In this document: positions 10,368 to 29,328 of the stretch, piece after piece
Layout: each line of letters opens with the position of its first letter
Numbering within the stretch: position 1 is the first letter of the stretch
Assembly (NCBI GenBank): GCA_027451945.1
Contig: DAIDHT010000033.1
Location: forward strand, 4,245-68,244
Length of the DNA: 64,000 nt
Direction of reading: 5' to 3'
Source: Spirochaetales bacterium
GTDB lineage: Bacteria; Spirochaetota; Spirochaetia; JABEVK01
Notes under the pieces: model-generated
What the model was told of the DNA's origin: nothing
The model's input: only the letters and a program-made list of their open reading frames with translations
Databases searched by the model: none
Position numbers and translations under genes: made by a program

Positions 10368-10445
10368 AGGCGAAGAATACGAAAAAGACTTCTCGGCTGT
10401 CCAGCATTCCTAGGCTAAACTCGGTTCCTGGGCTAAACTGACCCC

Positions 10446-11771: not shown

Positions 11772-11777
11772 CGGCAC

Positions 11778-13263: not shown

Positions 13264-13289
13264 CAACCTGTGAAATATTTAACAGGTTG
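13264..13289. promoter_or_regulatory. 26-bp palindrome CAACCTGT-N10-ACAGGTTG (operator-like site 2)
   Basis: The identical 8-bp arms recur 304 bp downstream with a different AT-rich N10 spacer (caacctgt gaaatattta acaggttg). It lies about 160 bp upstream of the msrAB start. Confidence 0.5.
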
Positions 13290-13402
13290 AGCCATTTTAA
13301 CACACTGAAAGGACGTCGACACACTCCTTTCGGCTTCAAGGGGGCAACTTAACGTGGTACTTCAGAAGGCGAGACGATTTCCGATTTTTTTACTAAGATT
13401 TA

Positions 13403-16317: not shown

Positions 16318-16420
16318 GGGCTCTCCCGTTCTTTTTTCGGCATGAAATCGCTTTGACCTAACCGGTTTTATCGTTCTTTACGGCCTTGCGTGCCAAGAGG
16401 ATTCCCTGAATAATAGAGCC

Positions 16421-17863
16421 ATGGATGCCGAGCGTTTACGCCAAAGCTTGACGGACAACCCTTCATTGCGCCTCTTGCGTAACCCGCATGCGCTCTTTCT
16501 TTTGCTTTTTTTTCGAAAGATGTTCTATGACGACCCCATTCCTATGGTCGAAAGCGATCTCTTAGAGGGGCGGCTGGCCACCTTTTTTGAAGAATGCGGT
16601 CTCGAGGCTGACGAAATTCCGTTAGCCCAGGGCGATCGTCACCGCCGGGCAAAAGTACTCTTAGACCATTGGTGCCGCGACGAAATTCGTTACCTGAGAC
16701 GGTTTGCCGACGAAAATGGCCAGGTCTGGGTTGAAGCGACACCCTGGACGCAACGGGTGTTCCAGTGGATCGAAACCCTCGACGACACTTTAGTGGGAAC
16801 CGAAAGCCGCTTTGATGAAATCCTCCAGCGGTTAGATGACCTAGTTTTGAAGCTTGACCCTGACCCGAAGTCTCGTATTCGGCGTCTCGAAAAAAAGAAA
16901 GCCGCACTGGACTTAGAAATTCAAAAGCTTAAGATCGGCCTTGAGCCCCCGCAGTGGACCGATGTTCAGCTCGAAGAACGAATTAGCGCGCTCAACCGCC
17001 TCTCCCGTGCCCTGCTAGGCGATTTTAAGCAGGTTGAACAAAACTTTCAGACTTTGGTCCGCCGGATCTATGAACAACAGGCCCAAGAAGGTTTTAGTCG
17101 CGGGGACATTCTGGGCTATACCTTGGACGCCGCCGAAGAACTTCGCCAAAGTCCTCAGGGACGTAGCTTTTATGCCTTTTGGGAGCACCTGATTCGTGAA
17201 GGCGAACAGGAGTCGCTTCCTGAGCGCCTGGGCGAACTGTTTGCGTTGCTCGATGCGCAAAATCGCAGCCCTCATGATGAGGTCCTCCGTCACCTGAAAA
17301 CGCATCTGCATTTAGCAGGGCGCAAAGTCATTGCTGGCAACCGGTTGCTCGCCGAAAAGTTAAATAAACTCCTCTCGGAACAAGACTTTCATCACCGTGA
17401 ACGGCTTCGCACGCTTTTAGCCTCGCTAAAAGAAGAGTTTGTCCGTCACAATGCCTCGCCCCCCGCTGACTTTGTTTGGGAGGTTGAGGGCGATGCCGAG
17501 TTAAGTATGATTGCCGACCGCCCGTGGAGCGAACCACCCGAAGGGCGTTTTAAAGACCATCGTCCCCAGCGGGAAACCCAGGCCCTACCCGCCGAAAGCC
17601 GCGCTGTCCTTACGGGTCAGTTTAGTATCGACTTGCTTAAGCTTCGCCGTCGCGTGGCCGAGAGTACCCGCCAAGGCCAAGCCACCTTAGAGGAAATCCT
17701 TTCGCGCTGGCCACCCGAGCAAGGCCTGTCGGAAGTTCTTGCCTACTTAGAAATCGCTTCGTTTTCGCCTTCAGGGCATGTCAATCCTGACGAGACTACC
17801 CTTTTGCCGGTTGATGAGCGCCTCCGGCTTCGATCCCCCCGCGTGGAGTTTGGCCATGTCTGA
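16421..17863 (+). CDS. JetA/MksF-like (DUF3375-type) kleisin-like subunit of an MksBEF/Wadjet-type SMC complex
   Basis: 480-aa helical protein, translationally coupled (ATGTCTGA overlap) to a ~200-aa acidic partner. Size, charge pattern and context match MksF/JetA. The assignment is by architecture, not by a run profile search. Confidence 0.55.
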   Translation: MDAERLRQSLTDNPSLRLLRNPHALFLLLFFRKMFYDDPIPMVESDLLEGRLATFFEECGLEADEIPLAQGDRHRRAKVLLDHWCRDEIRYLRRFADENGQVWVEATPWTQRVFQWIETLDDTLVGTESRFDEILQRLDDLVLKLDPDPKSRIRRLEKKKAALDLEIQKLKIGLEPPQWTDVQLEERISALNRLSRALLGDFKQVEQNFQTLVRRIYEQQAQEGFSRGDILGYTLDAAEELRQSPQGRSFYAFWEHLIREGEQESLPERLGELFALLDAQNRSPHDEVLRHLKTHLHLAGRKVIAGNRLLAEKLNKLLSEQDFHHRERLRTLLASLKEEFVRHNASPPADFVWEVEGDAELSMIADRPWSEPPEGRFKDHRPQRETQALPAESRAVLTGQFSIDLLKLRRRVAESTRQGQATLEEILSRWPPEQGLSEVLAYLEIASFSPSGHVNPDETTLLPVDERLRLRSPRVEFGHV

Positions 17864-18452
17864 TGATCTTGAGTTTACGGTGCTCTCGTATGCACCGGTT
17901 ATTCTAAAACTGCTTCAAGGCCCTCTTTACGACGATGATGCCAAGCTCTGGGCACTCTTGCTGGACAACACAGGGGCCGTCCAAGAGTGGTTTGGCCATA
18001 TCGGGTTGCGACTGATGCTGGTAACCGAAGAGGGACTGGCGTATTTGACTCAGCCTGAGGACGAAGAAGATACCCTGCCTCGGTTGGTGAAACGGGCACC
18101 CTTGGGGTACGATGCCACCGTTTTAGCGGTGATTTTGCGTGACGCCCTCGAGGAGTTTGACCTTACCAATACCGATAGCCGTGACCTCTTTATAACCGCT
18201 CGCGACCTTCAAGCCCGCCTGGCTCCCTATACGGGGGGGCGTTTTGACGAGGCCCGTACTTGGAAGCAGTTTGAACGCTCGCTGGGGCATATGGTTAAGC
18301 TCGGGTTCTTGCGTGAGACGGCTTCGCCCGACCCCGGCGACCAGGGCCGCAAGGTTTATCAAGTTATGCGCATCCTCAAGGTCAAGCTGGGTGGGGCCCA
18401 GCTTGATGACCTCAAGGCTCGGTTAGCGGCTTATCGACCGGGTGGGGCCTGA
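17856..18452 (+). CDS. JetB/MksE-like (DUF4194-type) subunit
   Basis: 199-aa acidic protein (MSDDLEFTVLSYAPVILKLLQGPLYDDD...) starting inside the stop codon of the upstream gene. This is the typical MksE/JetB size and position. Confidence 0.5.
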   Translation: MSDDLEFTVLSYAPVILKLLQGPLYDDDAKLWALLLDNTGAVQEWFGHIGLRLMLVTEEGLAYLTQPEDEEDTLPRLVKRAPLGYDATVLAVILRDALEEFDLTNTDSRDLFITARDLQARLAPYTGGRFDEARTWKQFERSLGHMVKLGFLRETASPDPGDQGRKVYQVMRILKVKLGGAQLDDLKARLAAYRPGGA

Positions 18453-18823
18453 CGAACGTACAAGATACGGGTTCCCAACAGTTCGCCGTCCACGCTAAAG
18501 CTGAGCAAATAGGTTCCGGCGCGGGGAAAGGTCACGTTCATAAGCGCTGGGGTTAACTCAACGACAACCTCGGCTTCGGGGGATTCAAAGTCGCCGTTGA
18601 AGGGAACTACGACTTGTTGAGACTCTTCGTGTACAAGCGTCAAAGCAAAGGTATGCTTACCCGTGAGGTTTGTGACCGCTGCATAGATAAACCATGGCGG
18701 GAACAAGGCGGGAAAGCTTTGCGAATGAAAGACATTGAACGTGCCAATGATTCCCCGCTTTCCGTTGTTTTCAATAATGACACGATCGGCAAATAACAGG
18801 CCGACAAGAACCGGTTCACTCAA
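18431..18823 (-). CDS. hypothetical protein (130 aa)
   Basis: ORF convergent with jetB, overlapping it by 22 bp. No recognisable motif. Confidence 0.45.
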   Translation of the reverse strand: MSEPVLVGLLFADRVIIENNGKRGIIGTFNVFHSQSFPALFPPWFIYAAVTNLTGKHTFALTLVHEESQQVVVPFNGDFESPEAEVVVELTPALMNVTFPRAGTYLLSFSVDGELLGTRILYVRQAPPGR

Positions 18824-18873
18824 TTTTTTCCCCTTTGGCCCTTGGGCCGTCGCTGGTCAAAGTTCTGTTTTGG

Positions 18874-19377
18874 TTAATGAAAATACTCGTCCTTGGTCAG
18901 CCAAATTTCTTCCATGCGATACAAGTGCCAGTCATCGTGAATCACCAAGTGTCGAGCAATGATACTCAAGGAATACAGCCGATACTCGCCATGTAGGGCT
19001 TGCTTTTTCCAGTCCGACTTGCGGGCCTTGGCGAAAAGCTTCAATTGCTTATCCCGCAGGCGCCGATAAGTCGTAAGGGCGGCCCCGATCGAAGGGAAAA
19101 GCTCAGCCAAGGCCGGCTCATTATCAGGAAAATACGGCTGGATCACCGGTCGCTCTTCGGCAAGAATCAGTTTGATCCGCCCTAGAAGTAACTTTTGGAC
19201 ATCGGCTAAATGGTACAGGTGTTCCCTGAGTGTCCAGACTTCGGGCCCTCGCCGCACATCCCAGAGGTCTTGAGGAATCTGTTTGGTAAAATCTTCGATC
19301 ACCTGGGACTGCAGAGCCAGGATCTTTTTGGTCGCGCGTGGAATTTTCACACAGCCCTCCTTGAACACACAAGTCAT
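18874..19377 (-). CDS. DinB/YfiT-like (DinB_2) family protein
   Basis: Four-helix-bundle His pattern (HLYHLADVQ ... HLVIHDDWHLYRM) typical of DinB_2 metal-dependent proteins. Confidence 0.65.
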   Translation of the reverse strand: MTCVFKEGCVKIPRATKKILALQSQVIEDFTKQIPQDLWDVRRGPEVWTLREHLYHLADVQKLLLGRIKLILAEERPVIQPYFPDNEPALAELFPSIGAALTTYRRLRDKQLKLFAKARKSDWKKQALHGEYRLYSLSIIARHLVIHDDWHLYRMEEIWLTKDEYFH

Positions 19378-19437
19378 CCTTCTATGTTCCTTTTTATCTT
19401 GTTCCCCCTTGCTAAACTTTTCAAGTCACCGTACTAT

Positions 19438-19456
19438 TACTTTGCGACACAAAGTA
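19438..19456. promoter_or_regulatory. inverted repeat TACTTTG-CGACA-CAAAGTA with an additional direct TTTACTTT copy, upstream of the wHTH regulator
   Basis: Read directly. It lies 28 bp upstream of the regulator ATG, just before its AAGGAGAG SD. Confidence 0.4.
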
Positions 19457-19483
19457 GCTTTACTTTCTAAAAGGAGAGCTCAG

Positions 19484-19828
19484 ATGCCCGAGAATCCCGC
19501 GCATGCTACCGAGGTGAGAGATCTCTACACCAAGTTTGATGCGGTATTTTTTGAAAAAACTCGGCTGTCGATTATTACCCTGCTTTACCGTGACAAGGAA
19601 ATTTCTTTCAATCAGCTTAAAGAAGCCCTAGGGGCCAGCGACGGCGGTCTCTATGCACACTTAGAAAAGCTTCGTCAGGCCGGGTACGTAGACGGGCAAA
19701 AAGCTATCATTGAGAATTCGATCAGTTCGCAATACTTTCTTACGCTGTTGGGGAAAACCAGGTTTCGCGAGTATGTCGAGTTTTTAGCCTCCGTAGTGAA
19801 TGCTCACACGGAAAAGGAGAGTTCATGA
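19484..19828 (+). CDS. winged-helix transcriptional regulator (ArsR/PadR-like), 114 aa
   Basis: LSIITLLYRDKEISFNQLKEALGASDGGLYAHLEKLRQAGYV is a wHTH pattern. Start at the ATG at 19484 behind AAGGAGAG. The stop overlaps the next gene (ATGA). Confidence 0.65.
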   Translation: MPENPAHATEVRDLYTKFDAVFFEKTRLSIITLLYRDKEISFNQLKEALGASDGGLYAHLEKLRQAGYVDGQKAIIENSISSQYFLTLLGKTRFREYVEFLASVVNAHTEKESS

Positions 19829-20613
19829 ATTCGTTCATTCGTGAGTTTCGCCGCCGGCCACGGTTGGCAGTACTTTTGACCCTCTTGTGTCTGGGGGCCC
19901 CTTTTGCCTGGGCACAGAGTGTGCCCGACGGCAACACCCTTTTGGCCCGGATTGACGAAATCCGTTTTCCCGAAGATTTCACCATGAAGGTAACGCTCAC
20001 AACGGTCACCCAAGGCGAAGACCCCAAAGTGATGAGCATGGAAGTTACTCATAAAAAAGGCTTGGGAAGTTTTTTACAGATCCTGTCGCCCCCTCGGTCC
20101 CGTGGCACACGGATGTTGACGGAATCGGGGAGCCTGTGGCTCTATAACCCCCACTCAGGCTCAAGTCGTCCCCTGCGCCTGGCCCCTCGGGATTCCTTTC
20201 AGGGCTCGGCCTTTTCTAACTCGGATGTCTCCCGCACCTCCTTTTTAGACGACTACCGTGGGGTTTTTGAAAAAGCTGAAGTGATTGATCACCCCGAGTT
20301 TGGTAAAGTCAAAGTCTGGCAGTTGCGGGCCGTCGCGAAAAGACCTGAAGCCGCTTACGGCTGGATTGAAATGTGGGTTCGTCAAGGTGACCTTTTACCG
20401 CTCAAGTTCGATTACTATGCCAAATCGGGACTCCTGTACCGAAAAATGGTCCTCAGTCATTATAAAGAGATGGCGGGCCGCCTACGAGCCACCGAAATGC
20501 AGATGGTGTCCCTAGACCAAACCGGCACGACCTCGACCTTGGTGATCAACAGTATGAAGACTCGTCATGACATCCCCGACGAGCTGTTCAACTTGAACGC
20601 CTTAACGAGGTGA
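19825..20613 (+). CDS. LolA-like outer-membrane lipoprotein-sorting fold protein (periplasmic)
   Basis: Signal peptide (AVLLTLLCLGAPFAWAQ). Its size and adjacency to a MacB/LolCDE-type transporter fit COG2834-like proteins. Confidence 0.6.
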   Translation: MNSFIREFRRRPRLAVLLTLLCLGAPFAWAQSVPDGNTLLARIDEIRFPEDFTMKVTLTTVTQGEDPKVMSMEVTHKKGLGSFLQILSPPRSRGTRMLTESGSLWLYNPHSGSSRPLRLAPRDSFQGSAFSNSDVSRTSFLDDYRGVFEKAEVIDHPEFGKVKVWQLRAVAKRPEAAYGWIEMWVRQGDLLPLKFDYYAKSGLLYRKMVLSHYKEMAGRLRATEMQMVSLDQTGTTSTLVINSMKTRHDIPDELFNLNALTR

Positions 20614-20616
20614 CTC

Positions 20617-21828
20617 ATGAAGAAACGGGCCCTGTTTTGGGGTGTTCTTTTTCTGGGGCTGGCGAGTCTTTCGCTTTCTGCTCAAGACGAGCCCAGGTTT
20701 AACTATGTCGCCGATGCTGGGCAGATTCTTCTCGGCTCGGCCCCCGATTGGAACGCAGGTGCCACCGCGCAGTGGCTGTTGGACCTCAACGGCCGCCTCA
20801 GCTTTTCGCAAGGGGCTACAGCCTTCATCCTGGACGGTTCGGCCTATTTGCCGCTGGGGAACTCGCTTCAGACGGGGCAGGCACTCTTTGATGTCGCCGA
20901 AGCCTACGTCAGGCTCACCCCCTTTCCGGGGCTGGATTTAACGTTCGGTAAAAAGCGCCTCAACCTCGGGGTTGGGCAAACCTTTACCGTGGGTGACTCG
21001 ATCAACCCCGCGATCAACTTTTTTGACCAAAAAAGCGGCTTTCGAGGAGCCACCTGGGCGTGGTCACCAAACGCTTGGTTCGGGTGGACTGGCGGAATTT
21101 CGCTGGAACGCGAGCTAGGCAACACTTTGGGGGGCACGGGAACAAGCCCGACCTTTTCTGCCAACAACCTGGCCGGGGCAACTCAACTTAGCGTTCAGAC
21201 GGGCCGCTTTCAAGGAACCGCCAGCCTGTGTTTCAGTCCCAGCCAAACCTTCAACCCCGCCCTAGGGGTTTCGTACGACGTAAGTGGAGTCATTCTGACG
21301 GCAGAAGGAGCGGTTGAGTTTCTGCCCCAAGGGCTCGTGCCAGCATCGGGCCCTGTCAGTACCTGGACCGCCCCCACGGCTTGGACCCAACCAGCCCCCT
21401 CCGGCTCCGTGGGCGCGCGCTATACGTGGTCGGTGGGTGATGTTGACCTCACCGTTCAAGGAGAAACCTTGTACTGGGGGCAAGGCTGGACCTCCAGCCA
21501 AGTGGCCCAAGCGAATGCCCTTCCTGGAACCACCGTATCGGCCCTTCGCCCCGCCCTTCGTGACCGGTACAACGCTATCTTCCACCTGGATGCGAATTCA
21601 AGCAACACCTTTGATTTGGCGGGCTTTTGTCTGGTCGACCTTCAGGACGCCAGTACTCTCTACCAGGCAAGCCTCACCCTCTATCCTTGGGACAGTCTAG
21701 ACCTGGTGGGGATCTTTCAGGCGGCAACAGGGGCTGTTACCGATGCCTGGAACAGTGTGCCGCTCCCGCCTCCCAGTATGCAAACCGCGCGTTATGTCGT
21801 GACCTTTCAAACTCGTTATCATTTTTAA
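20617..21828 (+). CDS. outer-membrane beta-barrel protein (hypothetical)
   Basis: Signal peptide, alternating hydrophobic beta-strand pattern rich in Gly/Ser/Thr, and a C-terminal ...TRYHF ending in Phe. Confidence 0.55.
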   Translation: MKKRALFWGVLFLGLASLSLSAQDEPRFNYVADAGQILLGSAPDWNAGATAQWLLDLNGRLSFSQGATAFILDGSAYLPLGNSLQTGQALFDVAEAYVRLTPFPGLDLTFGKKRLNLGVGQTFTVGDSINPAINFFDQKSGFRGATWAWSPNAWFGWTGGISLERELGNTLGGTGTSPTFSANNLAGATQLSVQTGRFQGTASLCFSPSQTFNPALGVSYDVSGVILTAEGAVEFLPQGLVPASGPVSTWTAPTAWTQPAPSGSVGARYTWSVGDVDLTVQGETLYWGQGWTSSQVAQANALPGTTVSALRPALRDRYNAIFHLDANSSNTFDLAGFCLVDLQDASTLYQASLTLYPWDSLDLVGIFQAATGAVTDAWNSVPLPPPSMQTARYVVTFQTRYHF

Positions 21829-21852
21829 GTGCGCAAATTTAAGGAGTCATCC

Positions 21853-22536
21853 ATGGCCGAACCCGTCCTAACGATCCGCGAAGTTACCAAGAACTATCAG
21901 CTGGGAAAAACCATTATTCCCGCCCTTAAGGGCGTCAGCTTTACCATTGACACCGGTGAATTTTTGTCGATTGTAGGCCCCTCCGGCTGTGGCAAAACAA
22001 CACTCCTCAATATTCTTGGCTGTATCGACAAGCCAAGCAGTGGCAGTGTGAGCTTTCAGGGCCGTGACCTCGCCACCCTCAATGATGATCAAGAAGCAGA
22101 CATTAGGCTCAACGAAATCGGCTTTATCTTTCAATCGTTTAATTTAATCGCCGTTCTCAATATCCGCGAGAACATCGAGTTCCCCCTTTTGATGCGCAAG
22201 GTAAGCGCCAAAGAACGACAAAAGATTGTCGATCACTTGGTCGATGTGGTGGGACTGGGAGATTTCGTCAAACACAAACCCGATGAGCTTTCTGGCGGAC
22301 AAAGACAACGGGTGGCAATCGCCCGGGCCCTCGTCAACCGCCCCCGGCTTGTCATTGCGGACGAACCGACGGCCAACCTTGATTCCGTCACGTCAACCAT
22401 GATCATGGAGGTGATGAAACGCCTCAATGAAGAAGAAAAAGTCAGCTTCATCTTTTCGACCCACAACGCTTTGATTGAAAAGTATGCGACACGGATCATT
22501 CGTCTCAAAGATGGACTGATCGCCGGGGAGAACTAA
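21853..22536 (+). CDS. ABC transporter ATP-binding protein, MacB/LolD-type
   Basis: Walker A GPSGCGKTT, signature LSGGQRQRVAIARAL and Walker B LVIADEPT. The start was moved to the ATG at 21853 behind AAGGAG. Confidence 0.85.
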   Translation: MAEPVLTIREVTKNYQLGKTIIPALKGVSFTIDTGEFLSIVGPSGCGKTTLLNILGCIDKPSSGSVSFQGRDLATLNDDQEADIRLNEIGFIFQSFNLIAVLNIRENIEFPLLMRKVSAKERQKIVDHLVDVVGLGDFVKHKPDELSGGQRQRVAIARALVNRPRLVIADEPTANLDSVTSTMIMEVMKRLNEEEKVSFIFSTHNALIEKYATRIIRLKDGLIAGEN

Positions 22537-22538
22537 CC

Positions 22539-23768
22539 ATGTTCTTTAAACTGGCCTGGCTCAATATTTTTAAGCACAGCAAGCGGTCGTTGGTGGTTTT
22601 TTTTGCGGTGCTCATTGCCGTGGGAGTCCTCTCGCTCATCAGCGGCGTCCTTAGCGGGTTGACTTCAACCTTTTTGGACAGCATTTTGCCCACGGCTGGC
22701 CATCTTCAAATCAAGGCAGCTGGTTCCGATAACGCCGTGAACCCCCAGGACCTCAAGTACCTGTTACCCCACGCTGACAAGCTTTTAGCCAAGATTCAGG
22801 ATCCTCGGGTGCTGATTAAAGAAAAAATCTTGAGCTTTCCCGCTTTGGTGGTTCAGCCGGTACCGGTTGACAGCAAAGCCGAAGCAAAAAATCTCGGTAT
22901 GATGGGGCAAGGAGTCTCGCCCTCCACCGCCTTTTATTCGAACATCCGCGAAGGAATCACCCAAGGTAGCTTTCTGCCGCAAGGCCAGGGCATTCTCTTA
23001 TCCGAAAGTGCGGCAAAGCTGTTGGGAGTCAAGTATGGCGGGTCGGTGATGGTACTCACCACCGACCGTGACAACAATCCCTGGTACCAAGAGCTCAAAA
23101 TCACGGGGTTGTACCGTTCAGGGAGCGATTTAACCGACGACAGCTTGTTCTTTGTGTCCACGGCGACCGCAGAGTCGCTTTTGGACGCTCAAGGGATGAC
23201 TCGCGAAATCCGGTTGGTTTTAAAAAATCCTGCCGATAGCTATGCGGTCCGCCAAAGTTTGCGCCAAGAGTTTCCGCCACAACGGTACGAAATCGACGTC
23301 TGGCAAGAAACGTTTGGGTCACTCCTCACCATCCTCAAGCTTTTAGATGTCGTCTCGGCTATTATCCGCATCTTTTTTATCATCGTAGCCACGTCCGTGA
23401 TTGCCAATTCGATCCTGATGTCCATCTTCGAGCGGATGCGCGAACATGGCACCTTACGGGCGATCGGTCTAAAACGACGGCAGTTGTTGGCGATGTTGCT
23501 CACCGAGGGTGCCCTGTTAGGCGCTCTGGGAGCCCTCTGTGGCTTGGTTTTGGGGGTCAGCGCCGTTGCTCTTTTGTCCAAGGTGGGTGTCGATGTGGGG
23601 TCAGCCACCGAATACTTGGGTTTTGCCAGCCGCATCTACCCGGCCTTAAACCCGACCGATATCGTGGCCAACGGAGCGGCGGGAATTGTCATTGCCCTGG
23701 CGTCAACCTTTTATGCTGCCCGGGTAGCGGCCAAAAAGAGCGTCCTTGAGGCGCTAACGTACATATAA
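22539..23768 (+). CDS. ABC transporter permease, FtsX/MacB/LolC-like
   Basis: 409 aa. It has an N-terminal TM, a large periplasmic domain and C-terminal FtsX-type TM helices (RAIGLKRRQLLAMLLTEGALLG). Confidence 0.8.
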   Translation: MFFKLAWLNIFKHSKRSLVVFFAVLIAVGVLSLISGVLSGLTSTFLDSILPTAGHLQIKAAGSDNAVNPQDLKYLLPHADKLLAKIQDPRVLIKEKILSFPALVVQPVPVDSKAEAKNLGMMGQGVSPSTAFYSNIREGITQGSFLPQGQGILLSESAAKLLGVKYGGSVMVLTTDRDNNPWYQELKITGLYRSGSDLTDDSLFFVSTATAESLLDAQGMTREIRLVLKNPADSYAVRQSLRQEFPPQRYEIDVWQETFGSLLTILKLLDVVSAIIRIFFIIVATSVIANSILMSIFERMREHGTLRAIGLKRRQLLAMLLTEGALLGALGALCGLVLGVSAVALLSKVGVDVGSATEYLGFASRIYPALNPTDIVANGAAGIVIALASTFYAARVAAKKSVLEALTYI

Positions 23769-23779
23769 AAGGAGCTGGC

Positions 23780-25024
23780 ATGGAAATCTTCACGGTCGCC
23801 CTACGCAATGTTTTCCGTAACCCCCGGCGAACGTTTTTAAACGTCATTGCCATTGCCTTGGGAGTGATGGTCCTCATCAGTATGCAAGCCTGGATCATCG
23901 GCATGGAACAAACCGTCTATCAAACACAACGCGATATCGATACGGCAGATGTTCAAATTCTCAATCGAGGCTACCAGGCCGAAAGTGTTCGGCTTCCGCT
24001 GGATTTGGGCATCACCGACACCAAGGCCGTCGAAACTTTTGCTCGGAGCCTCCCTGGGCTGGAGGCCGTAGGAGCTCGCATCGACTACGCGGCAGGAATC
24101 AGCAACGGAGTCACCTCAGTCCCGGTTCAGGTTCGTGGTGTTGACCCCCAGGCGGAACCGAAACTCACCACCATTGCCCGCAACCTCACGGCTGGTACGT
24201 GGATGAAAAATTCCAACGATATCGTGGTCGGCAGTGGGCTTGCCGCTACCTTAGGTTTAAAGGTAGGACAGCAGGTTTTTTTGACGGCCCTGGACCGCTA
24301 TGGCGTTCGCAACCTCGTTGCTGGGACCATTTCGGGCATCTTTTCGTTGGGGTTTGCCCTCTTTGATCATCACATTATCTTCACCACCCTCGACAAGGCT
24401 CGGGAAGCCCTCTCGTTACCCCCCGATTTTGCGACCCGCGTGGTTCTTCGCTTTCACGGGAATGACACGGCAGCCGATACTGCCGAAACCATTCAGGCAC
24501 TTCGCCAAGATTCTGGCTTAGCTGGTCAGCCCCTCAAGGTCTACGAGTGGAAAGAGTTTGCACAAACGGTCGTCAGTTCCATTGACAGCCGTATCCGTAT
24601 TTTGACCCTCATGTTGGGGATTTTGGTTCTGCTAGTGACGGTAGGAATACTTAATTCCCTGTCGATGTCAGTTCAGGAACGCTTTCGCGAAATCGGTACC
24701 CTTCGAGCTTTAGGGATGAAGCGAAAAAACCTCCGCCGGCTTTTTTTGACTGAAGGACTGTTGCTGGGTGCGCTCGGTGGCCTTGCTGGGGTGCTAGCGG
24801 CCTTGGCCCTGGGAATCGCCTTTGCTGGGGGTATAGATGTACGAAAGCTCCTGCCCGAAAATATTCCCATTCCGTTTACCAGCCTCTTGAAGCCTGTCTA
24901 CGAACCCTTGCCGTTTGTGCTGGCGATCGCGGGCTCTGCTTTTATTGCCGTTGTGGGGGCGTGGCTCCCCGCGCGAAGGGCCGGGAAGCTCCAGATTGTC
25001 GACGCTCTGGGCAGTCACCTGTAA
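23780..25024 (+). CDS. ABC transporter permease, FtsX/MacB/LolE-like (second copy)
   Basis: 414 aa, with the same architecture as the previous gene (RALGMKRKNLRRLFLTEGLLLG). AAAGGAG SD. Confidence 0.8.
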   Translation: MEIFTVALRNVFRNPRRTFLNVIAIALGVMVLISMQAWIIGMEQTVYQTQRDIDTADVQILNRGYQAESVRLPLDLGITDTKAVETFARSLPGLEAVGARIDYAAGISNGVTSVPVQVRGVDPQAEPKLTTIARNLTAGTWMKNSNDIVVGSGLAATLGLKVGQQVFLTALDRYGVRNLVAGTISGIFSLGFALFDHHIIFTTLDKAREALSLPPDFATRVVLRFHGNDTAADTAETIQALRQDSGLAGQPLKVYEWKEFAQTVVSSIDSRIRILTLMLGILVLLVTVGILNSLSMSVQERFREIGTLRALGMKRKNLRRLFLTEGLLLGALGGLAGVLAALALGIAFAGGIDVRKLLPENIPIPFTSLLKPVYEPLPFVLAIAGSAFIAVVGAWLPARRAGKLQIVDALGSHL

Positions 25025-25032
25025 ACCGTTTC

Positions 25033-25074
25033 GCCCCCTCGTTGACAGGGGGCTTGCCTCCCCCTAGAGTGGGG
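25033..25074 (+). promoter_or_regulatory. G/C-run region able to form mutually exclusive hairpins between the permease gene and jetC
   Basis: GCCCCCT(25033-39)/AGGGGGC(25047-53), alternatively AGGGGG(25047-52)/CCCCCT(25060-65), and CCCC(25061-64)/GGGG(25071-74). No U-tract follows. Confidence 0.25.
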
Positions 25075-25076
25075 CT

Positions 25077-28000
25077 ATGTCTACTCTCTTTGAAACAGAT
25101 GTTCAAAGCGCTGGCTGGCATCTCAATACTCTCGAGATTTACAACTGGGGCACCTTTCACGACAAGATTTACCGCTTGGTCCCTCGCGGTAAAAACTCCC
25201 TGCTCACGGGGGCCAACGGGTCAGGCAAGACCACCGTGGTCGATGCTTTGGTTACCTTGCTGGTACCGCCGGGAAAACGTCACTACAACCAGTCGTCGGG
25301 GGCGGACAAAAAACGAGAACGCGACGAAACCTCGTATGTTCTGGGCGCGTATGGTACCCTTCGCGACGAAGACAGCACCTCGGGCGAAACGCAATACCTG
25401 CGGGGTAAAGATGATTTTTCGCTCCTTTTGGCCAGCTTTGCCAACGAGAGTTTTCAACAAGAAGCCACGTTAGCCCAACTGCGCTGGTGGTCGGCGGGCT
25501 CCTTGAAACGGCTCTACTTGGTGGCTAACGCCGGGCTTTCCTCCGAAGATTTGCTCCCGTTTGACGGGGGCCCCGCCTGGAAAAAAGCCCTTACAGCTCG
25601 ACATCCCGTGAAATTCTTCGACACCTTTGCCCTCTATGGGCAGACGTTTTCTAGCTTGTTTGGCCTAAAAAGCGACAAAGCCCTCAGTTTGTTTTCGCAT
25701 GTGGTCGGGGTTAAGGTGTTGGGCGACCTGAACGAGTTTATCCGCGACAACATGTTGGATGCGGCGGATATGGAAGAAGACTTCGCCAAACTCAAAAAGA
25801 ACTATGAAGACCTTTTGGGAGCGCATCAGCAGATTGAAAAGGCTAGGGAACAACTGCGTTTATTGGAACCGGCCATGCTGGCCGGCGAGCGCTGGGAAGC
25901 TCTCAGTCAGCAAAAAGCCGAGCAGGATCAAGCTTGGGAGGCTGTTGCCCCCGTTTTTGCGGCCCAAGAAAAACGACTTCTCGCCGAGGCCAAAAACCGT
26001 GAGCAAGTTCGTTTGGCCGCCGTCGAAGCTCAAAAGGACAGTTTGGACCTTCAGCTCGAAGATTTGCGCCGCCAAGAACGCGATTGGGAATTCGCCCTCC
26101 GCGACAAAAGTCAAAGTGGACTTTTGGACACTTTAGAGCGCGACGTAGCCCATCGCCGCGATATCCTGGCCGGAAAAGAGCGGTTAAGACTGGAGTATGA
26201 CGGTTTGGCCAAGGCCTTGGGGTTTGGTCCCGTCCAGGGAGAAACGGGCTTTTGGGAACACCGCGAAGAAGCTGTCCGACAAAAGTCAGCGCTCGAAGAA
26301 CAAGCGGCTCCTGCAAGCTTTGCCTGGGCCGAAGGGCGAAACCGTCTTCTTGCCGCCAGTGAGGAAGCCGAGGCGCTGACTCAAGAGCTAGAAAGTCTTC
26401 GCCATCATTCGGATGCGATTCCTCGCGACCGCAGGCAGTGGCGCGACCGAATGGCGGCCGACCTCGATATGGACCCTGAAAAACTTCCGTTTGCGGCCGC
26501 GTTGGTTCGGGTTCTTGAGCCTCAGTGGAGGCCCGCGGTAGAGCGGCTTTTGGGTGAATTTCTTTTGGCGGTTCTGGTTGACCCCGAACACGAAACTGCC
26601 GTTCGCGCCTGGGTCGGTGACCACCCCGGAAAAATCTTGGTCTTGCGCGACTCGACCGAAGAACAATTTTTTGTCTCGGAAGACAGGGACCAACTCACTG
26701 ACCTTTTAGAGTTTCGTCGCTTGGCACCTTGGGGGGAACGTTTGTCCGCGTGGTTGCGTCGAACCTACGATTTTCAGGCTTGCGAAAGCGATCAACTTTC
26801 GCGCACCCAGCGTGGCTTTACCCAAGACGGCTGGATTCGTGATGGGCGGCTGTGGAGCCGCCCCTCCCCTGGTTGGGACGATCCAGGGCACTTCGTCCTT
26901 GGTTGGGAGAATGAGGTCCAGCGCAAGGCCCTATTTCAGCGCCGAGAAACCGCGCAAACTGAACTGGCCCGCCTTGAGGCCCAACAAAATGCTTTAGAAG
27001 AAAAACGGCGCCAGACTGATAACCGACGGATACTTTTGGAAAAGCTTCTCGATTTTACTGCTTGGAACCAACTGGATACCGAGACCGAAACTGCCGAGCT
27101 TGCCAAGTTAGCGGACCGCAAGAAGGCACTAACCGGCGAAAGCGGCACCGACCAACTACACCAACGCTTAGCGGAGCTCAAAGTTGCCCTCAAAGACAAA
27201 ACTCGTGAAAAAGATGAAACGACCGCTCAGTCAGGACGACTCCGCAAGACCCTTGAAGAGTATGAAATGGAAGAGTCTGCGGCCCAGCGCATTCTGCTTG
27301 ACTTTGCTGGTTTTGATTTAGAAGAGGGCCAACGGCGCCTCGAACCGTGGCTCAAGCAGGTGAACATCTTGCTCGACCTCGGGTCTTTAGTTAAAGTCCG
27401 TGATGAAGTCAGTCGTACCCTGGCTGGCGAACGAAAACGAACCACCGACGACCTTAAACTCGTGGAACGGGAGCTAGAAACAGCCATGCATCGGTACATC
27501 AACCCGGGTGCTGAACTGGCCGCGCGCTTTCCCGAGTGGACAGGCGAAACCGCCTCGCTCATGGCCAAGGCTGACAACTTGAACGAGTTTCGTCAGCGTT
27601 ACGACCGAATTCGGCGTGAAGACCTCCCCGGGTACCAGAAACGGTTTAAGGATTGGCTCAACCAAAGATTGCTTGAAGACATCGCCGACTTTAGAACCTC
27701 GTTAGAAAATCACCTGCGTGCCATTCAAGAAACCGTGCGGGAACTTAACTCGTCTTTAAAAACTATCACCTACAACAGCCTTCCTGCTACCTTTATTCAA
27801 CTTCAGGCCGAAGACAGCCGTGATCTACAAATCCGCGACTTTCGGCGCATGCTCAAAGAGGCTCTAGTAGGTGACAGCGACCTCGAGCAGGCCTTTCATC
27901 GGATTCGCGCCATCATCCAAGCCCTAGCCGACGATGAGCTTTGGCGAAAAAAAGTCACCGATGTGCGCCATTGGCTTCAATTCGCCGCCGTGGAACGCTA

Positions 28001-28403
28001 TGCCGAAGACGGATCTCAACGCCAGTATTACCAGGATAGCCAGAGCTTATCGGGTGGCGAAAAGGCCAAGTTGGCCTACACCATTCTGGCAAGCGCGATC
28101 GCCCATCAATTTGGTATTAGGGGAACAGCGGGGTCGCGTTCCTTGCGTTTTGCCGTGGTGGACGAAGCCTTTAGCAAGGTTGACCCTGAAAACTCAAAAT
28201 TCGCGATGAAACTCTTTGAACAGATGAACCTTCAGTTGATGGTCGTGACCCCTCTGGATAAAATTAATGTGGTAGAAGACTACATTCGCACGATCCACTA
28301 CGTTGAAAACAAAAACCGCAAAACTTCGGCGGTTTATGATCTTTCACTCGAAAAAAGCGAGGATTTTCATGACTTTAGTCCCCTCTCCACCAACGGCCGA
28401 TAA
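25077..28403 (+). CDS. JetC/MksB-like SMC-family ATPase (1108 aa)
   Basis: N-terminal LEIYNWGTFHDKIY...LLTGANGSGKTTVVDALVTLLVPP and the YNQSSGADKKRERDETSYVLGAYG block characteristic of MksB/JetC. A long coiled-coil middle region. C-terminal LSGGEKAKLAYTILASAIA signature and VVDEAFSKVD Walker B. Confidence 0.8.
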   Translation: MSTLFETDVQSAGWHLNTLEIYNWGTFHDKIYRLVPRGKNSLLTGANGSGKTTVVDALVTLLVPPGKRHYNQSSGADKKRERDETSYVLGAYGTLRDEDSTSGETQYLRGKDDFSLLLASFANESFQQEATLAQLRWWSAGSLKRLYLVANAGLSSEDLLPFDGGPAWKKALTARHPVKFFDTFALYGQTFSSLFGLKSDKALSLFSHVVGVKVLGDLNEFIRDNMLDAADMEEDFAKLKKNYEDLLGAHQQIEKAREQLRLLEPAMLAGERWEALSQQKAEQDQAWEAVAPVFAAQEKRLLAEAKNREQVRLAAVEAQKDSLDLQLEDLRRQERDWEFALRDKSQSGLLDTLERDVAHRRDILAGKERLRLEYDGLAKALGFGPVQGETGFWEHREEAVRQKSALEEQAAPASFAWAEGRNRLLAASEEAEALTQELESLRHHSDAIPRDRRQWRDRMAADLDMDPEKLPFAAALVRVLEPQWRPAVERLLGEFLLAVLVDPEHETAVRAWVGDHPGKILVLRDSTEEQFFVSEDRDQLTDLLEFRRLAPWGERLSAWLRRTYDFQACESDQLSRTQRGFTQDGWIRDGRLWSRPSPGWDDPGHFVLGWENEVQRKALFQRRETAQTELARLEAQQNALEEKRRQTDNRRILLEKLLDFTAWNQLDTETETAELAKLADRKKALTGESGTDQLHQRLAELKVALKDKTREKDETTAQSGRLRKTLEEYEMEESAAQRILLDFAGFDLEEGQRRLEPWLKQVNILLDLGSLVKVRDEVSRTLAGERKRTTDDLKLVERELETAMHRYINPGAELAARFPEWTGETASLMAKADNLNEFRQRYDRIRREDLPGYQKRFKDWLNQRLLEDIADFRTSLENHLRAIQETVRELNSSLKTITYNSLPATFIQLQAEDSRDLQIRDFRRMLKEALVGDSDLEQAFHRIRAIIQALADDELWRKKVTDVRHWLQFAAVERYAEDGSQRQYYQDSQSLSGGEKAKLAYTILASAIAHQFGIRGTAGSRSLRFAVVDEAFSKVDPENSKFAMKLFEQMNLQLMVVTPLDKINVVEDYIRTIHYVENKNRKTSAVYDLSLEKSEDFHDFSPLSTNGR

Positions 28404-28419
28404 AACCCTGGGGCGAGCC

Positions 28420-29328
28420 ATGTTGCTCAGCCTCACCATCGGTTTTTTGATGCTGATAACCAAGATGACGGCATATGTCATCACCAACTCGGCCGCGATC
28501 ATGTCGGACGCCGCCGAGTCTGTGGTACACGTCGTCGCGGTCACCTTTGCCTTTTACAGCCTCAAACTTTCGTCAAAACGGTCAGACAAGTCCCATCAGT
28601 TTGGCTACGATCGTATCAGCTTTTTCAGCGCCGGGTTTGAGGGGGCAATGATTGTTCTGGCGGCCTTATTCATCATTTACGAAGCGGTCCTCAAATTTAT
28701 TGAAGGCCCACGATTAAGTGACGTCGATGTCGGTACGATCATCAGTGGGGTTGTTCTTGTCGTCAACGGGATTCTGGGCCTGAGTCTGGTTCAAATTGGC
28801 AAACGAAAAAACAATTTGATTCTTGAAGCCAACGGCCGCCACGTTCTGACCGATTCTGTCACCTCGGGTGGGGTTTTAATCGGCTTGCTCTTGGTTTTGT
28901 TTTTTCCTAAAAATTGGATCCACGTAGGGACTTGGACGTTTGATCCTGCCTATTTTGACCCAATTTTCGCCATCTTAGCCGCCTTAAATATCTTGTCCGA
29001 AGGCGGAAAGCTCATGAAACGCTCTTTTTCGGGCCTGATGGACCGCGTCACACCCGAAGAAGAACGAAAACTCGAAGAGGTTTTAGCAGCCGCCTGCCAA
29101 GCTGAAAAAGCAGAGTATCACGAGGCGCGCTTTCGCAACTCGGGCAACCGATACTGGATCCAAGTCCACCTGTTGTTTGACGACAGCGCCCGCCTTCGTG
29201 ATGCCCACCGGTCAGCGACACGGATCGAGCAAACGCTCGCCGCGTCGTTTCCCGGCTGTATGGTGACCACTCATCTTGAAACTCGTAAGGATCACGATGC
29301 CATTCACCCCCCTGCCCCCGAGGTGTAG
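28420..29328 (+). CDS. cation diffusion facilitator (CDF) family metal efflux transporter
   Basis: HQFGYDRISFFSAGFEGAMIVLAALFIIYEA and HVLTDSVTSGGVLIGL motifs. The start was set at the first ATG after the jetC stop. Upstream ATGs would overlap jetC. Confidence 0.75.
   Translation: MLLSLTIGFLMLITKMTAYVITNSAAIMSDAAESVVHVVAVTFAFYSLKLSSKRSDKSHQFGYDRISFFSAGFEGAMIVLAALFIIYEAVLKFIEGPRLSDVDVGTIISGVVLVVNGILGLSLVQIGKRKNNLILEANGRHVLTDSVTSGGVLIGLLLVLFFPKNWIHVGTWTFDPAYFDPIFAILAALNILSEGGKLMKRSFSGLMDRVTPEEERKLEEVLAAACQAEKAEYHEARFRNSGNRYWIQVHLLFDDSARLRDAHRSATRIEQTLAASFPGCMVTTHLETRKDHDAIHPPAPEV

What the first reader, a model, noticed from the sequence alone, without database searches (positions are those of the whole stretch)
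16421..28403. Split MksBEF/Wadjet-like locus: jetA-jetB separated by 6.6 kb from jetC, which sits in an operon with a LolA/MacB-type envelope ABC exporter; no JetD
Three hallmark components of an SMC-like Mks/Wadjet complex are present but not contiguous.
- JetA/MksF: a 480-aa DUF3375-like protein at 16421-17863.
- JetB/MksE: a 199-aa acidic protein at 17856-18452, translationally coupled to jetA by an ATGTCTGA overlap.
- JetC/MksB: an unmistakable 1108-aa ATPase at 25077-28403, with Walker A GANGSGKTT, the YNQSSGADKKRERDETSYV block, a long coiled coil, LSGGEKAK and VVDEAF.
Between jetB and jetC lie two convergent minus-strand genes (an unknown 130-aa protein and a DinB_2 protein). They are followed by a tightly packed plus-strand operon: wHTH regulator with an upstream palindrome, LolA-like protein, beta-barrel OMP, MacB/LolD ATPase and two FtsX permeases. 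Its last stop codon is 52 nt before jetC, and a CDF transporter starts 17 nt after jetC. No toprim/DUF2220 JetD/MksG candidate exists anywhere in the 64 kb. Either an envelope-transport island was inserted into an ancestral jetABC operon and jetC is now driven by a foreign promoter, or an SMC-like DNA-acting ATPase is genuinely co-expressed with a Lol/MacB-like exporter. Neither arrangement is the canonical contiguous jetABCD or mksFEB layout.
Basis: partly seen in the sequence, partly recalled or inferred. Interest (0 to 1): 0.75.

Follow-up and report, generated by a model that had tools for sequence, protein, structure and literature searches.

The report
Split, nuclease-less Wadjet (JetABC) in spirochaetes
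A lineage of uncultured spirochaetes keeps the three motor genes of the Wadjet anti-plasmid SMC complex intact and under selection, but in two separately transcribed pieces and without the JetD nuclease, so it looks like a defence system turned into a nuclease-free, condensin-like DNA motor; its position next to an envelope exporter is incidental.

Summary
The ORF at 16421-17863 is JetA, 17856-18452 is JetB and 25077-28403 is JetC. All are full-length type I Wadjet matches, and 6.6 kb separates jetB from jetC. No JetD was found in the 64-kb window or in 134 kb of related loci.

- **Age of the split:** it is shared by a monophyletic spirochaete clade (JetC 50-96% identical), and the DNA between jetB and jetC differs by lineage: the Lol-like exporter here, Band_7/Metallophos genes in L072, and more than 10 kb in L071/L074.
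- **Transcription:** jetC has its own conserved promoter ending 6 nt before its ATG and no Shine-Dalgarno sequence, whereas all six exporter genes have one. The exporter link is therefore positional.
- **Selection:** dN/dS for jetA, jetB and jetC is 0.04-0.06, like the housekeeping neighbours, and all ATPase motifs are intact.
- **JetD docking site:** the JetC loop that carries the docking residue in E. coli (F919) is shortened, with no conserved hydrophobic residue, only in this clade (11 of 11 clade sequences against 0 of 163 others).

The best reading is an independent, vertically inherited, nuclease-less JetABC that resembles MksBEF. A jetD elsewhere in the genome could not be excluded. 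This is a new variant of a known kind, of moderate interest.

The parts
16386..16414 (+). Putative jetA promoter: TTGCGT, 17 nt, AATAAT, ending 6 nt before the jetA ATG (leaderless layout)
   Evidence: The hexamers are conserved and the spacer varies in window, L003, L004 and L074. No Shine-Dalgarno sequence is present. The promoter is inferred and has not been tested experimentally.
16421..17863 (+). jetA (kleisin; MksF-like), 480 aa
   Evidence: Pfam DUF3375 at 1.7e-77 and PADLOC JetA1 at 1.9e-96. The closest solved chains are JetA of 8Q72, 8AS8 and 8DK1. dN/dS is 0.042 against L004.
17856..18452 (+). jetB (KITE; MksE-like), 198 aa, overlapping the jetA stop by 8 nt, with its own Shine-Dalgarno sequence
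   Evidence: Pfam DUF4194 and MksE, and PADLOC JetB1 at 6e-45. The overlap is ATGTCTGA. GGAG lies at -11. dN/dS is 0.062.
18431..18823 (-). DUF6941 gene, convergent with jetB; a conserved neighbour of jetAB
   Evidence: Pfam DUF6941 at 4.7e-20. It lies next to jetB in window, L003, L004 and L074, but not in L072.
18874..25024 (.). Lineage-specific filler: DinB_2 (18874-19377, minus strand); palindrome 19438-19456; HTH_34 regulator (19484-19828); LolA_like/TP_0789-like protein (19825-20613); 403-aa putative outer-membrane protein (20617-21828); LolD-like ATPase (21829/21853-22536); two MacB_PCD+FtsX permeases (22539-23768 and 23780-25024)
   Evidence: Annotation. Every plus-strand gene has a Shine-Dalgarno sequence. 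The block is absent from this position in L071, L072 and L074. L004 lacks the regulator. GC content does not differ from the flanks.
25042..25070 (+). Putative dedicated jetC promoter: TTGACA, 17 nt, TAGAGT, ending 6 nt before the ATG (leaderless layout). The spacer contains the inverted repeat GGGGG-CTTGCCT-CCCCC.
   Evidence: It is the only 10-of-12 match in the 14 kb scanned. It is invariant in window, L003 and L004, next to variable upstream DNA. Equivalent -10 boxes lie 6-7 nt before the ATG in L071, L072 and L073. The promoter is inferred and has not been tested experimentally.
25077..28403 (+). jetC (SMC-like ATPase; MksB-like), 1108 aa
   Evidence: PADLOC JetC1 at 5.7e-275 over the full length. 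The closest solved structures are E. coli GF4-3 JetC (8AS8) and PA14 JetC (8DK2). Walker A, Q-loop region, signature motif and Walker B are intact. dN/dS is 0.048.
27834..27896 (+). JetC 'larynx' loop (residues 920-940), shortened in this clade; it corresponds to the E. coli JetC F919 site that docks JetD
   Evidence: The loop is 19-21 residues in all 11 clade sequences and 25-29 in all 163 other JetC sequences. F919 maps either to a gap or to the non-conserved V931. The role of F919 comes from bioRxiv 10.1101/2023.11.03.565488.
28369..29328 (+). CDF cation-efflux gene, probably co-transcribed with jetC (GAGG Shine-Dalgarno at 28359-28362, overlapping the end of jetC)
   Evidence: Pfam Cation_efflux plus ZT_dimer. 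The Shine-Dalgarno sequence and ATG are conserved in L003, L004, L071 and L005. The orthologue follows jetC in L003, L004, L005 and L071, but not in L072 or L073.

Best explanation
This is a vertically inherited derivative of a type I Wadjet (JetABCD) system that has lost its nuclease, in a lineage of uncultured Spirochaetales.

**Origin (inferred from the tree and gene order).** An ancestral contiguous jetABCD operon, closest to those of Bacteroidota/Saprospiraceae, lost jetD. It was then broken into two conserved modules: [rhomboid | jetA-jetB | DUF6941] and [jetC, with a CDF gene in most lineages]. Each module has its own promoter abutting the start codon. The DNA between the modules is free to vary, and in this genome it is filled by a Lol/MacB-like envelope-exporter operon that has no functional tie to Jet.

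**Mechanism (inferred from established knowledge of JetABC, MksBEF and MukBEF).** JetC dimers, the JetA kleisin and the JetB KITE dimer are made from separate transcripts. They assemble into a normal ATP-driven, DNA-loop-extruding SMC complex. Without JetD, and without the JetC loop that docks it, the complex cannot cut DNA. It therefore most likely organises or segregates DNA, or restrains plasmids without cleaving them, as proposed for the MksBEF complexes of Pseudomonas aeruginosa and Mycobacterium smegmatis.

**Shown here:** protein identities, the split, selection, intact motifs, the loop change, the promoter sequence patterns, and absence of JetD from the DNA examined.

**Inferred:** complex assembly, leaderless transcription, the cellular role, and genome-wide absence of JetD.
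For: 1. **Identity.** All three proteins give full-length type I profile matches, and the nearest solved structures are type I JetC and JetA.
2. **Common origin.** JetA, JetB and JetC share the same nearest outgroup at 37%, 41% and 40% identity, and that outgroup has contiguous jetABC. In an NJ tree the clade is monophyletic, sister to the Bacteroidota jetABCD systems, and nested among JetD-bearing systems.
3. **Maintained, not decaying.** dN/dS is 0.042, 0.062 and 0.048 against L004, where dS is 0.48-0.69. Neighbouring genes give 0.008-0.081. ORFs are intact in lineages down to 44-50% identity. ATPase motifs are invariant.
4. **Vertical inheritance.** Flanking genes are conserved with matching divergence. 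Against L072, JetA/B/C are 44/45/50% identical and the RlmL-like gene is 46%. Against L071, JetC is 70% and the CDF 71%. The 64-kb window is core chromosome with no integrase or transposase.
5. **No JetD** in the window or in 134 kb of clade loci, and none among the unannotated ORFs.
6. **Docking loop.** The JetD-docking larynx loop is shortened and lacks a conserved hydrophobic residue only in this clade: 11 of 11 against 0 of 163.
7. **Independent transcription units.** Promoter-like elements are conserved at jetA and jetC. jetC has no Shine-Dalgarno sequence, unlike all six exporter genes.
8. **Variable filler** across lineages.
Against: - Whole genomes could not be searched. Because jetAB and jetC are already unlinked, an unlinked jetD elsewhere is a real possibility.
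- E. coli's own larynx loop is short (22 residues between the same anchors), and its alignment to this clade is ambiguous by a few residues. The loop argument rests on loss of conservation plus shortening relative to the sister groups, not on a structure.
- The other published JetD contact, the JetB IFDR motif, is absent even in the JetD-bearing relatives, so it could not be used.
- L071 (jetC) and L074 (jetAB) come from different samples. That they represent one genome type is inferred from their matching ~70% identities.
- The promoters are consensus matches supported by conservation, with no transcript data, and read-through from the exporter operon is not excluded.
- There is no experimental evidence for any cellular role.
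Confidence: 0.55

Rival explanations
1. It is still a working anti-plasmid Wadjet system. jetD has also been scattered and sits elsewhere in the genome as a third transcription unit, and JetABC recruits it in trans.
For: The operon is already fragmented, and jetAB and jetC function from unlinked positions, so linkage is clearly not required in this lineage. Only 64 kb of this genome, plus the homologous regions of relatives, could be examined. Other Spirochaetales MAGs do carry canonical jetABCD (L024, L025, L029, L031, L033 and L042).
Against: The clade-specific shortening of the JetC larynx loop and the loss of its conserved hydrophobic residue, at the site where JetD docks in E. coli, argue against JetD binding. 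No JetD was found in about 200 kb surveyed. Stable chromosomal synteny over deep divergence is unusual for a defence system.
Confidence: 0.22
2. JetABC has been re-coupled to a different effector that is not homologous to JetD, encoded in the variable slot between jetB and jetC or next to jetC. Candidates are the Metallophos phosphoesterase directly upstream of jetC in L072, or DinB_2/DUF6941 here.
For: A co-directional Metallophos gene lies 57 nt upstream of jetC in L072; this fold includes the Mre11/SbcD nucleases (established knowledge). DUF6941 is a conserved neighbour of jetB in four lineages and is under very strong constraint, with dN/dS of 0.016-0.027.
Against: No candidate is shared across the whole clade. 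The Metallophos gene is absent from the window, and DUF6941 and DinB_2 are absent from L072. DUF6941 and DinB_2 are convergently oriented to jetB. None of them hits a PADLOC model. jetC keeps its own promoter even in L072.
Confidence: 0.08
3. JetC is functionally coupled to, and co-expressed with, the Lol/MacB-like envelope exporter.
For: Only adjacency: the genes are co-directional, the gap is 52 nt, and no obvious terminator lies between the last permease and jetC. This arrangement is conserved in window, L003 and L004.
Against: The exporter is absent from the jetC neighbourhood in L071, L072 and L073 and from the jetAB neighbourhood in L074. jetC has its own conserved promoter and lacks the Shine-Dalgarno sequence that all exporter genes have. 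L004 has even lost the operon's regulator.
Confidence: 0.03
4. It is a decaying remnant of a Wadjet system that was broken by rearrangement.
For: A defining component (JetD) is missing and the operon structure has been lost.
Against: dN/dS of 0.04-0.06 equals that of the housekeeping neighbours. ORFs are intact and full-length, and catalytic motifs are invariant, across lineages down to 44-50% identity.
Confidence: 0.03

Closest known systems
Type I Wadjet / JetABCD (= MksBEFG, EptABCD), e.g. E. coli GF4-3 (PDB 8AS8, 8Q72), P. aeruginosa PA14 (8DK2), C. glutamicum MksBEFG
   Same: JetA (DUF3375 kleisin), JetB (DUF4194 KITE) and JetC (SMC-like ATPase) are clear homologues. Their best profile hits are the type I models, and the nearest solved structures are type I JetC and JetA. 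The gene order A-B...C is preserved, and the ATPase motifs are intact.
   Different: No JetD nuclease was found. The operon is split into jetAB and jetC units 5.4 kb to more than 10 kb apart, each with its own promoter. The JetC larynx loop that docks JetD is shortened and not conserved. The genes are inherited vertically in conserved chromosomal context rather than spread patchily by horizontal transfer.
MksBEF condensins without MksG (P. aeruginosa PAO1 MksBEF; M. smegmatis MksBEF)
   Same: Both are SMC-kleisin-KITE complexes of the Mks/Jet family encoded without the Toprim nuclease. [quoted passage not shown] The M. smegmatis MksB condensin follows replication forks.
   Different: Those systems are described as contiguous mksFEB operons, whereas here the operon is split. 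This clade's nearest relatives are JetD-bearing Bacteroidota systems, and no protein above 41% identity lies outside the spirochaete clade. No functional data exist.
MukBEF (enterobacterial condensin)
   Same: The architecture is the same (SMC-like ATPase, kleisin, KITE dimer) and no nuclease is present. MukBEF is proposed to descend from a Wadjet-like ancestor (PMC10586767). There is a weak Pfam MukB N-terminal hit at 5.5e-4.
   Different: The sequences are far more diverged, and these proteins match Jet profiles rather than Muk profiles. mukFEB is a contiguous operon.
LolCDE / MacB-type envelope ABC exporters with a LolA-like (TP_0789-like) periplasmic partner
   Same: The intervening operon encodes a LolD-like ATPase, two MacB_PCD+FtsX permeases, a LolA_like protein and a putative outer-membrane protein.
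   Different: All NCBIfam LolC, LolD and LolE hits fall below their curated cut-offs, so this is a paralogous exporter and not bona fide LolCDE. It is unrelated to the Jet system, and its position between the jet genes is specific to one lineage.

Membership tests
Wadjet type I (JetABCD) | JetA: DUF3375 kleisin | tested here: met
   Pfam PF11855 at 1.7e-77 (261.7 bits against a cut-off of 28.6) and PADLOC JetA1 at 1.9e-96.
Wadjet type I (JetABCD) | JetB: DUF4194 / MksE-like KITE subunit | tested here: met
   PF13835 at 5.4e-32, PF21980 (MksE) at 2.6e-9, and PADLOC JetB1 at 6.4e-45.
Wadjet type I (JetABCD) | JetC: about 1100-aa SMC-like ATPase with Walker A, signature and Walker B motifs and a long coiled coil | tested here: met
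   PADLOC JetC1 at 5.7e-275, covering profile positions 9-1112 of 1123. The motifs are intact. The nearest solved structure is JetC 8AS8.
Wadjet type I (JetABCD) | JetD: DUF3322 + DUF2220/Toprim nuclease encoded with jetABC | tested here: not met
   A JetD HMM finds nothing in the window or in nine related loci. Pfam, PADLOC and hhalign are negative. The rest of the genome could not be tested.
Wadjet type I (JetABCD) | Contiguous four-gene operon jetA-jetB-jetC-jetD | tested here: not met
   There are 6624 nt and eight genes between jetB and jetC, and the two parts have separate promoter-like elements.
Wadjet type I (JetABCD) | JetC larynx residue that docks the JetD aCAP domain (E. coli F919) | tested here: not met
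   The loop is shortened to 19-21 residues in the clade only, against 25-29 in 163 other sequences. The equivalent position is a gap or V/A/T/S/P. The alignment register is uncertain by a few residues.
Wadjet type I (JetABCD) | JetB N-terminal IFDR motif that binds JetD | tested here: inconclusive
   The motif is absent here, but it is also absent from the JetB N-termini of the JetD-bearing relatives fetched, so it does not discriminate.
Wadjet type I (JetABCD) | Restricts or cleaves small circular plasmids | not testable with these tools
   This needs transformation or cleavage assays.
MksBEF-type nuclease-less condensin | MksF, MksE and MksB homologues present and intact | tested here: met
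   Profile matches, purifying selection and intact motifs.
MksBEF-type nuclease-less condensin | No MksG/JetD partner in the genome | tested here: inconclusive
   None was found in 64 kb plus 134 kb of clade loci. The whole genomes could not be searched.
MksBEF-type nuclease-less condensin | Stable chromosomal (core-like) inheritance rather than residence in a mobile defence island | tested here: met
   The rhomboid, DUF6941, CDF and RlmL-like neighbours are syntenic, with divergence matching that of the Jet proteins. No mobility genes occur in the window.
MksBEF-type nuclease-less condensin | Acts in chromosome organisation or segregation | not testable with these tools
   This needs genetics, Hi-C or imaging.
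   The association is seen only in window, L003 and L004. It is absent in L071, L072, L073 and L074.

The most novel reading that the evidence does not exclude
A spirochaete lineage has independently converted a type I Wadjet plasmid-defence system into a fixed, nuclease-free chromosomal SMC complex. Along the way it lost jetD, trimmed the JetD-docking loop of JetC, and broke the operon into unlinked jetAB and jetC(-CDF) units, each with its promoter abutting the start codon. If so, it is a natural intermediate on the proposed evolutionary route from Wadjet to MksBEF/MukBEF-type condensins, and it shows that stoichiometric SMC-kleisin-KITE assembly does not need operon linkage.
Probability: 0.5. 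Interest if true: 0.6.

Novelty: new variant of a known kind. Interest (0 to 1): 0.5.

Why it matters
SMC researchers have proposed that the chromosome-organising MksBEF and MukBEF complexes descend from Wadjet defence systems through loss of the JetD nuclease. That proposal rests on very few examples.

This clade would be an independent and comparatively recent example. Its nearest relatives, at about 40% identity, are still JetD-bearing, so before-and-after comparison is possible. It also shows a specific molecular change, the trimmed JetC docking loop, at the interface that structural work identified. That makes the transition directly testable, for example by restoring the loop and supplying a sister-clade JetD.

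It also shows that defence-system finders which require a contiguous jetABCD will miss such derivatives, and that gene adjacency (here to a Lol-like exporter) can mislead functional inference. The limits are that everything is computational, the organisms are uncultured, and genome-wide absence of JetD is unproven.

Tried and rejected
1. **JetB IFDR motif as a marker of JetD binding.** The motif is absent from JetB N-termini of the JetD-bearing relatives too, so it is uninformative.
2. **Rhomboid-anchored scan of metagenome contigs,** meant to show whether jetAB is fixed or patchy in relatives. It returned 15 loci at 67-75% identity, but none shares any other gene with the window. They are simply distant organisms, so the scan is uninformative.
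3. **A hidden, divergent JetD among the unannotated JetD-sized ORFs** (34016-35164, 37980-39161, 42075-43304, 59670-60884 and others). PADLOC found nothing relevant, and hhalign probabilities against the JetD alignment were all below 1%.
4. **Composition test for a foreign island at 18431-25076.** GC content is 0.50-0.57, the same as the flanks, so there is no signal.
5. **Shared operator between the jetA and jetC promoters.** None was evident on inspection.
6. **Rfam and tRNA scans.** They found only tRNA-Val at 11778-11850, which is unrelated.
7. **Apparent internal stop in L003 jetC.** This is just its earlier terminal stop: the protein is 1096 aa and matches P0002.
9. **Literature searches** for split or nuclease-less Wadjet in spirochaetes found no prior description in the library.

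Full report
**1.

- The 480-aa product of 16421-17863 matches Pfam DUF3375 (1.7e-77) and PADLOC JetA1 (1.9e-96).
- The 198-aa product of 17856-18452 matches DUF4194/MksE and JetB1 (6e-45).
- The 1108-aa product of 25077-28403 matches JetC1 over its whole length (5.7e-275).
- The nearest solved structures are the type I JetC proteins of E. coli GF4-3 (8AS8) and P. aeruginosa PA14 (8DK2), and the matching JetA chains.
- jetA and jetB overlap by ATGTCTGA.

Between jetB and jetC lie 6624 nt carrying:
- DUF6941 and DinB_2, both on the minus strand;
- an HTH_34 regulator preceded by the palindrome TACTTTG-N5-CAAAGTA;
- a LolA_like/TP_0789-like protein;
- a 403-aa protein with no Pfam match;
- a LolD-like ATPase and two MacB_PCD/FtsX permeases.

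Two ENA metagenome contigs carry jetC and its flanks at 100% protein identity, and one of them (L001) spans the split from jetA to beyond jetC. Two Spirochaetales MAGs also show the arrangement, so it is not a mis-assembly.

**2. No JetD**

I built an HMM from 17 JetD proteins that lie directly downstream of jetC in relatives; the positive controls scored 478-549 bits.
- It finds nothing in six-frame translations of the window, L003, L004 or L005, nor in L071-L076. This amounts to 64 kb plus 134 kb.
- Pfam scans of every ORF of 150 aa or more show only core-chromosome genes: aconitase-family proteins, Dus, MsrAB, dCTP deaminase, an RlmL-like gene, LeuRS, signalling proteins and others. There is no Toprim, DUF2220 or DUF3322 domain, and no integrase or transposase.
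- The JetD-sized ORFs without annotation are not JetD by PADLOC or by profile-profile comparison, where all probabilities were below 1%.

**3. The split is old and the filler varies**

A genome-collection scan with JetC returned 68 loci. Everything at 41% identity or less has contiguous jetA-jetB-jetC, and most have jetD next. The closest of these are Saprospiraceae and other Bacteroidota.

Only a small clade departs from this pattern:
- JetC at 96%, 89%, 70%, 50% and 50% identity (P0001-P0005).
- JetA at 95%, 89%, 69%, 59%, 51% and 44% identity.

Contexts within the clade:
- **L072 (JetC 50%):** jetA-jetB, then 5.4 kb of unrelated genes (two Band_7 proteins, small unknowns and a Metallophos protein), then jetC.
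- **L071 (JetC 70%):** the 10 kb upstream of jetC encodes a TonB-dependent receptor, ExbB, ExbD, TonB and others, with no jetAB.
- **L074 (JetA 69%):** rhomboid, jetA, jetB, DUF6941, then other genes, with no jetC within 10 kb.
- **L076 (JetA 59%):** rhomboid, then MazEF, then jetAB.

So there are two conserved modules with variable spacing: [rhomboid | jetAB | DUF6941] and [jetC-CDF]. The CDF orthologue is 71% identical in L071, where JetC is 70%. The Lol-like exporter fills the gap only in the window, L003 and L004, and L004 has even lost the regulator gene.

Against L072, JetA, JetB and JetC are 44%, 45% and 50% identical, and the syntenic RlmL-like gene is 46%. The Jet genes have therefore diverged in step with a housekeeping neighbour.

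An NJ tree places the clade as monophyletic, sister to the Bacteroidota jetABCD group, and nested among JetD-bearing systems. A contiguous ancestral jetABCD is therefore the parsimonious inference.

**4. Maintained by selection**
- Against L004 (dS 0.48-0.69, not saturated), dN/dS is 0.042 for jetA, 0.062 for jetB and 0.048 for jetC. Neighbouring genes range from 0.008 to 0.081.
- Walker A, the Q-loop block, the signature motif LSGGEKAK, Walker B VVDEAF and the VVTP region are invariant in the clade.
- A decaying remnant is excluded.

**5. jetC is its own transcription unit**

The 52-nt gap before jetC contains TTGACA, 17 nt, TAGAGT, ending 6 nt before the ATG. It is the only 10-of-12 match in the 14 kb scanned.
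- From TTGACA to the ATG the sequence is invariant in the window and L004, with one substitution in L003, while the DNA immediately 5' differs in both sequence and length.
- In L071 the upstream gene is on the opposite strand, and the same geometry is present: TTGACA, 17 nt, TACAGT, 6 nt, ATG.
- L072 and L073 have TATAAT 6-7 nt before the ATG.
- jetA has TTGC[G/T]T, 17 nt, AATAAT, 6 nt, ATG, conserved in four lineages with a variable spacer. L072 has TATAAT 9 nt before the ATG.

A survey of the window's genes gives an internal control.
- All six exporter-operon genes, and jetB, have a Shine-Dalgarno sequence at -9 to -13.
- jetA and jetC have none. They share the promoter-abutting-ATG layout with other first genes such as LeuRS and Dus.

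Leaderless transcription is an inference from these patterns. Read-through from the exporter operon is not excluded, because no terminator lies in the gap.

The downstream CDF gene has a conserved GAGG/AAGGAG Shine-Dalgarno sequence and an ATG at 28369, inside the 3' end of jetC. The conserved unit is therefore probably jetC-CDF.

**6. The JetD-docking site of JetC has changed**

Structural work shows that the JetD aCAP domain binds the JetC 'larynx' by accepting JetC F919 into a hydrophobic pocket, and that F919E abolishes restriction (bioRxiv 10.1101/2023.11.03.565488).
- Between two well-conserved anchors (window R920 and F940), the loop has 19-21 residues in all 11 clade sequences.
- It has 25-29 residues in all 163 other JetC sequences examined, and those keep a hydrophobic L, F or I in the loop.
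- Pairwise phmmer maps F919 to V931, a position that is V, A, T, S or P within the clade, next to invariant flanks.
- An L-INS-i alignment that includes the E. coli head fragment puts F919 in the deleted segment.
- In the sister clade, F919 aligns to the conserved L of PDPAKLI (moderate confidence).

Caveat: E. coli's own loop is short (22 residues), and the alignment register is uncertain by a few residues. The safe statement is that the clade alone lacks a conserved hydrophobic plug and has the shortest loop. The other published contact, the JetB IFDR motif (PMC10586767), does not occur in the JetD-bearing relatives either and could not be used.

**7. What it most likely is**

It is a type I Wadjet derivative that lost its nuclease and was retained as a chromosomal JetABC (= MksFEB) motor, expressed from two unlinked units.

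From established knowledge of JetABC, MksBEF and MukBEF, the three proteins should assemble into an ATP-driven, loop-extruding SMC-kleisin-KITE complex. Without JetD the complex cannot cut DNA. [quoted passage not shown] I put this at about 0.55.

The main rival, at about 0.22, is a jetD scattered elsewhere in the genome. Remaining rivals:
- an alternative effector, at about 0.08;
- coupling to the exporter, at about 0.03;
- a decaying relic, at about 0.03.

**8. Novelty and score**

Nuclease-less Mks systems are known. New here are the split operon, the apparently independent origin within a JetD-bearing clade, the change in the docking loop, and the stable vertical inheritance in spirochaetes. 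No paper in the library describes this.

It is a new variant of a known kind. Interest is 0.5.

Noticed in passing
window 28359-29328: The CDF cation-efflux gene has a conserved Shine-Dalgarno sequence and an ATG at 28369, inside the last 35 nt of jetC. It follows jetC in five genomes (window, L003, L004, L005, L071) but not in L072 or L073. An SMC-like ATPase and a metal exporter therefore appear to form a conserved bicistron, for no obvious reason.
   Followed up: partly
window: 9381-10367, 37980-39161, 44654-45934, 54489-56927, 59670-60884: Several first genes of transcription units (Dus, a U32 peptidase, LeuRS and two unknowns) have sigma-70-like promoters matching 8-10 of 12 positions, ending 6-9 nt before the start codon, with no Shine-Dalgarno sequence. 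This suggests that leaderless mRNAs are common in this organism.
   Followed up: partly
L061 (Bacteroides sp. MAG, NZ_CAJULN010000014.1) 8000-13354: This locus has contiguous jetA-jetB-jetC with a full-length larynx loop but no JetD anywhere in the 23-kb locus. Its closest relatives (L016, L022, L026) do have JetD. It may be a second, more recent loss of JetD.
   Followed up: partly
L007 15377-20080; L049 15143-19855; L013 16394-21100; L010 16295-20962; L011 15910-20526 (minus strand): In the Saprospiraceae/Bacteroidota sister clade, an ORF of about 1540-1570 aa lies within about 2 kb downstream of jetD, and directly after it in L007 and L049. In L011 the ORF is on the opposite strand. Its identity was not examined.
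   Followed up: no
L007 13374-14135; L049 13371-13988; L053 13449-14240: Some sister-clade loci have an extra gene of 205-263 aa directly after jetC; in L007 and L049 it lies between jetC and jetD. The L053 product looks like an XRE-type HTH fused to a peptidase-like C-terminus.
   Followed up: no
L076 2116-2681: A MazE/PemK toxin-antitoxin pair is inserted between the rhomboid gene and jetA in the lineage with 59% JetA identity.
   Followed up: no
L072 9186-9944: A Metallophos (calcineurin-like phosphoesterase) gene lies 57 nt upstream of jetC on the same strand in the lineage with 50% JetC identity. It has no counterpart in the window. This fold includes the Mre11/SbcD nucleases.
   Followed up: partly
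L004 4543-4674 versus window 19378-19828; L003 3636-4365: The HTH_34 regulator of the exporter operon is missing in L004, where the gap is only 130 nt. L003 has an extra stretch of about 730 nt there. The region between DinB_2 and the exporter operon is therefore rearrangement-prone.
   Followed up: partly
window 18431-18823: The DUF6941 gene is under very strong constraint (97-98% identity, dN/dS 0.016-0.027). It stays convergently abutted to jetB, with overlapping 3' ends, in four lineages. Its function is unknown.
   Followed up: partly
window 19825-25024: The exporter operon (TP_0789-like LolA-like protein, 403-aa putative outer-membrane protein ending in YHF, LolD-like ATPase and two LolC/E-like permeases) scores below all NCBIfam LolCDE cut-offs. 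It is a paralogous envelope exporter of unknown substrate.
   Followed up: partly
window 10446-11771, 49297-51675, 52376-53020, 53043-54458: Cyclic-nucleotide signalling genes are unusually dense here: two adenylate/guanylate cyclases (one with a GAF domain), a GAF protein and a Crp-like regulator.
   Followed up: no
window 35995-37749 and 39136-40725: An RHS-repeat protein of 584 aa and a DUF5312 protein of 529 aa lie on the minus strand. Neither was examined further.
   Followed up: no
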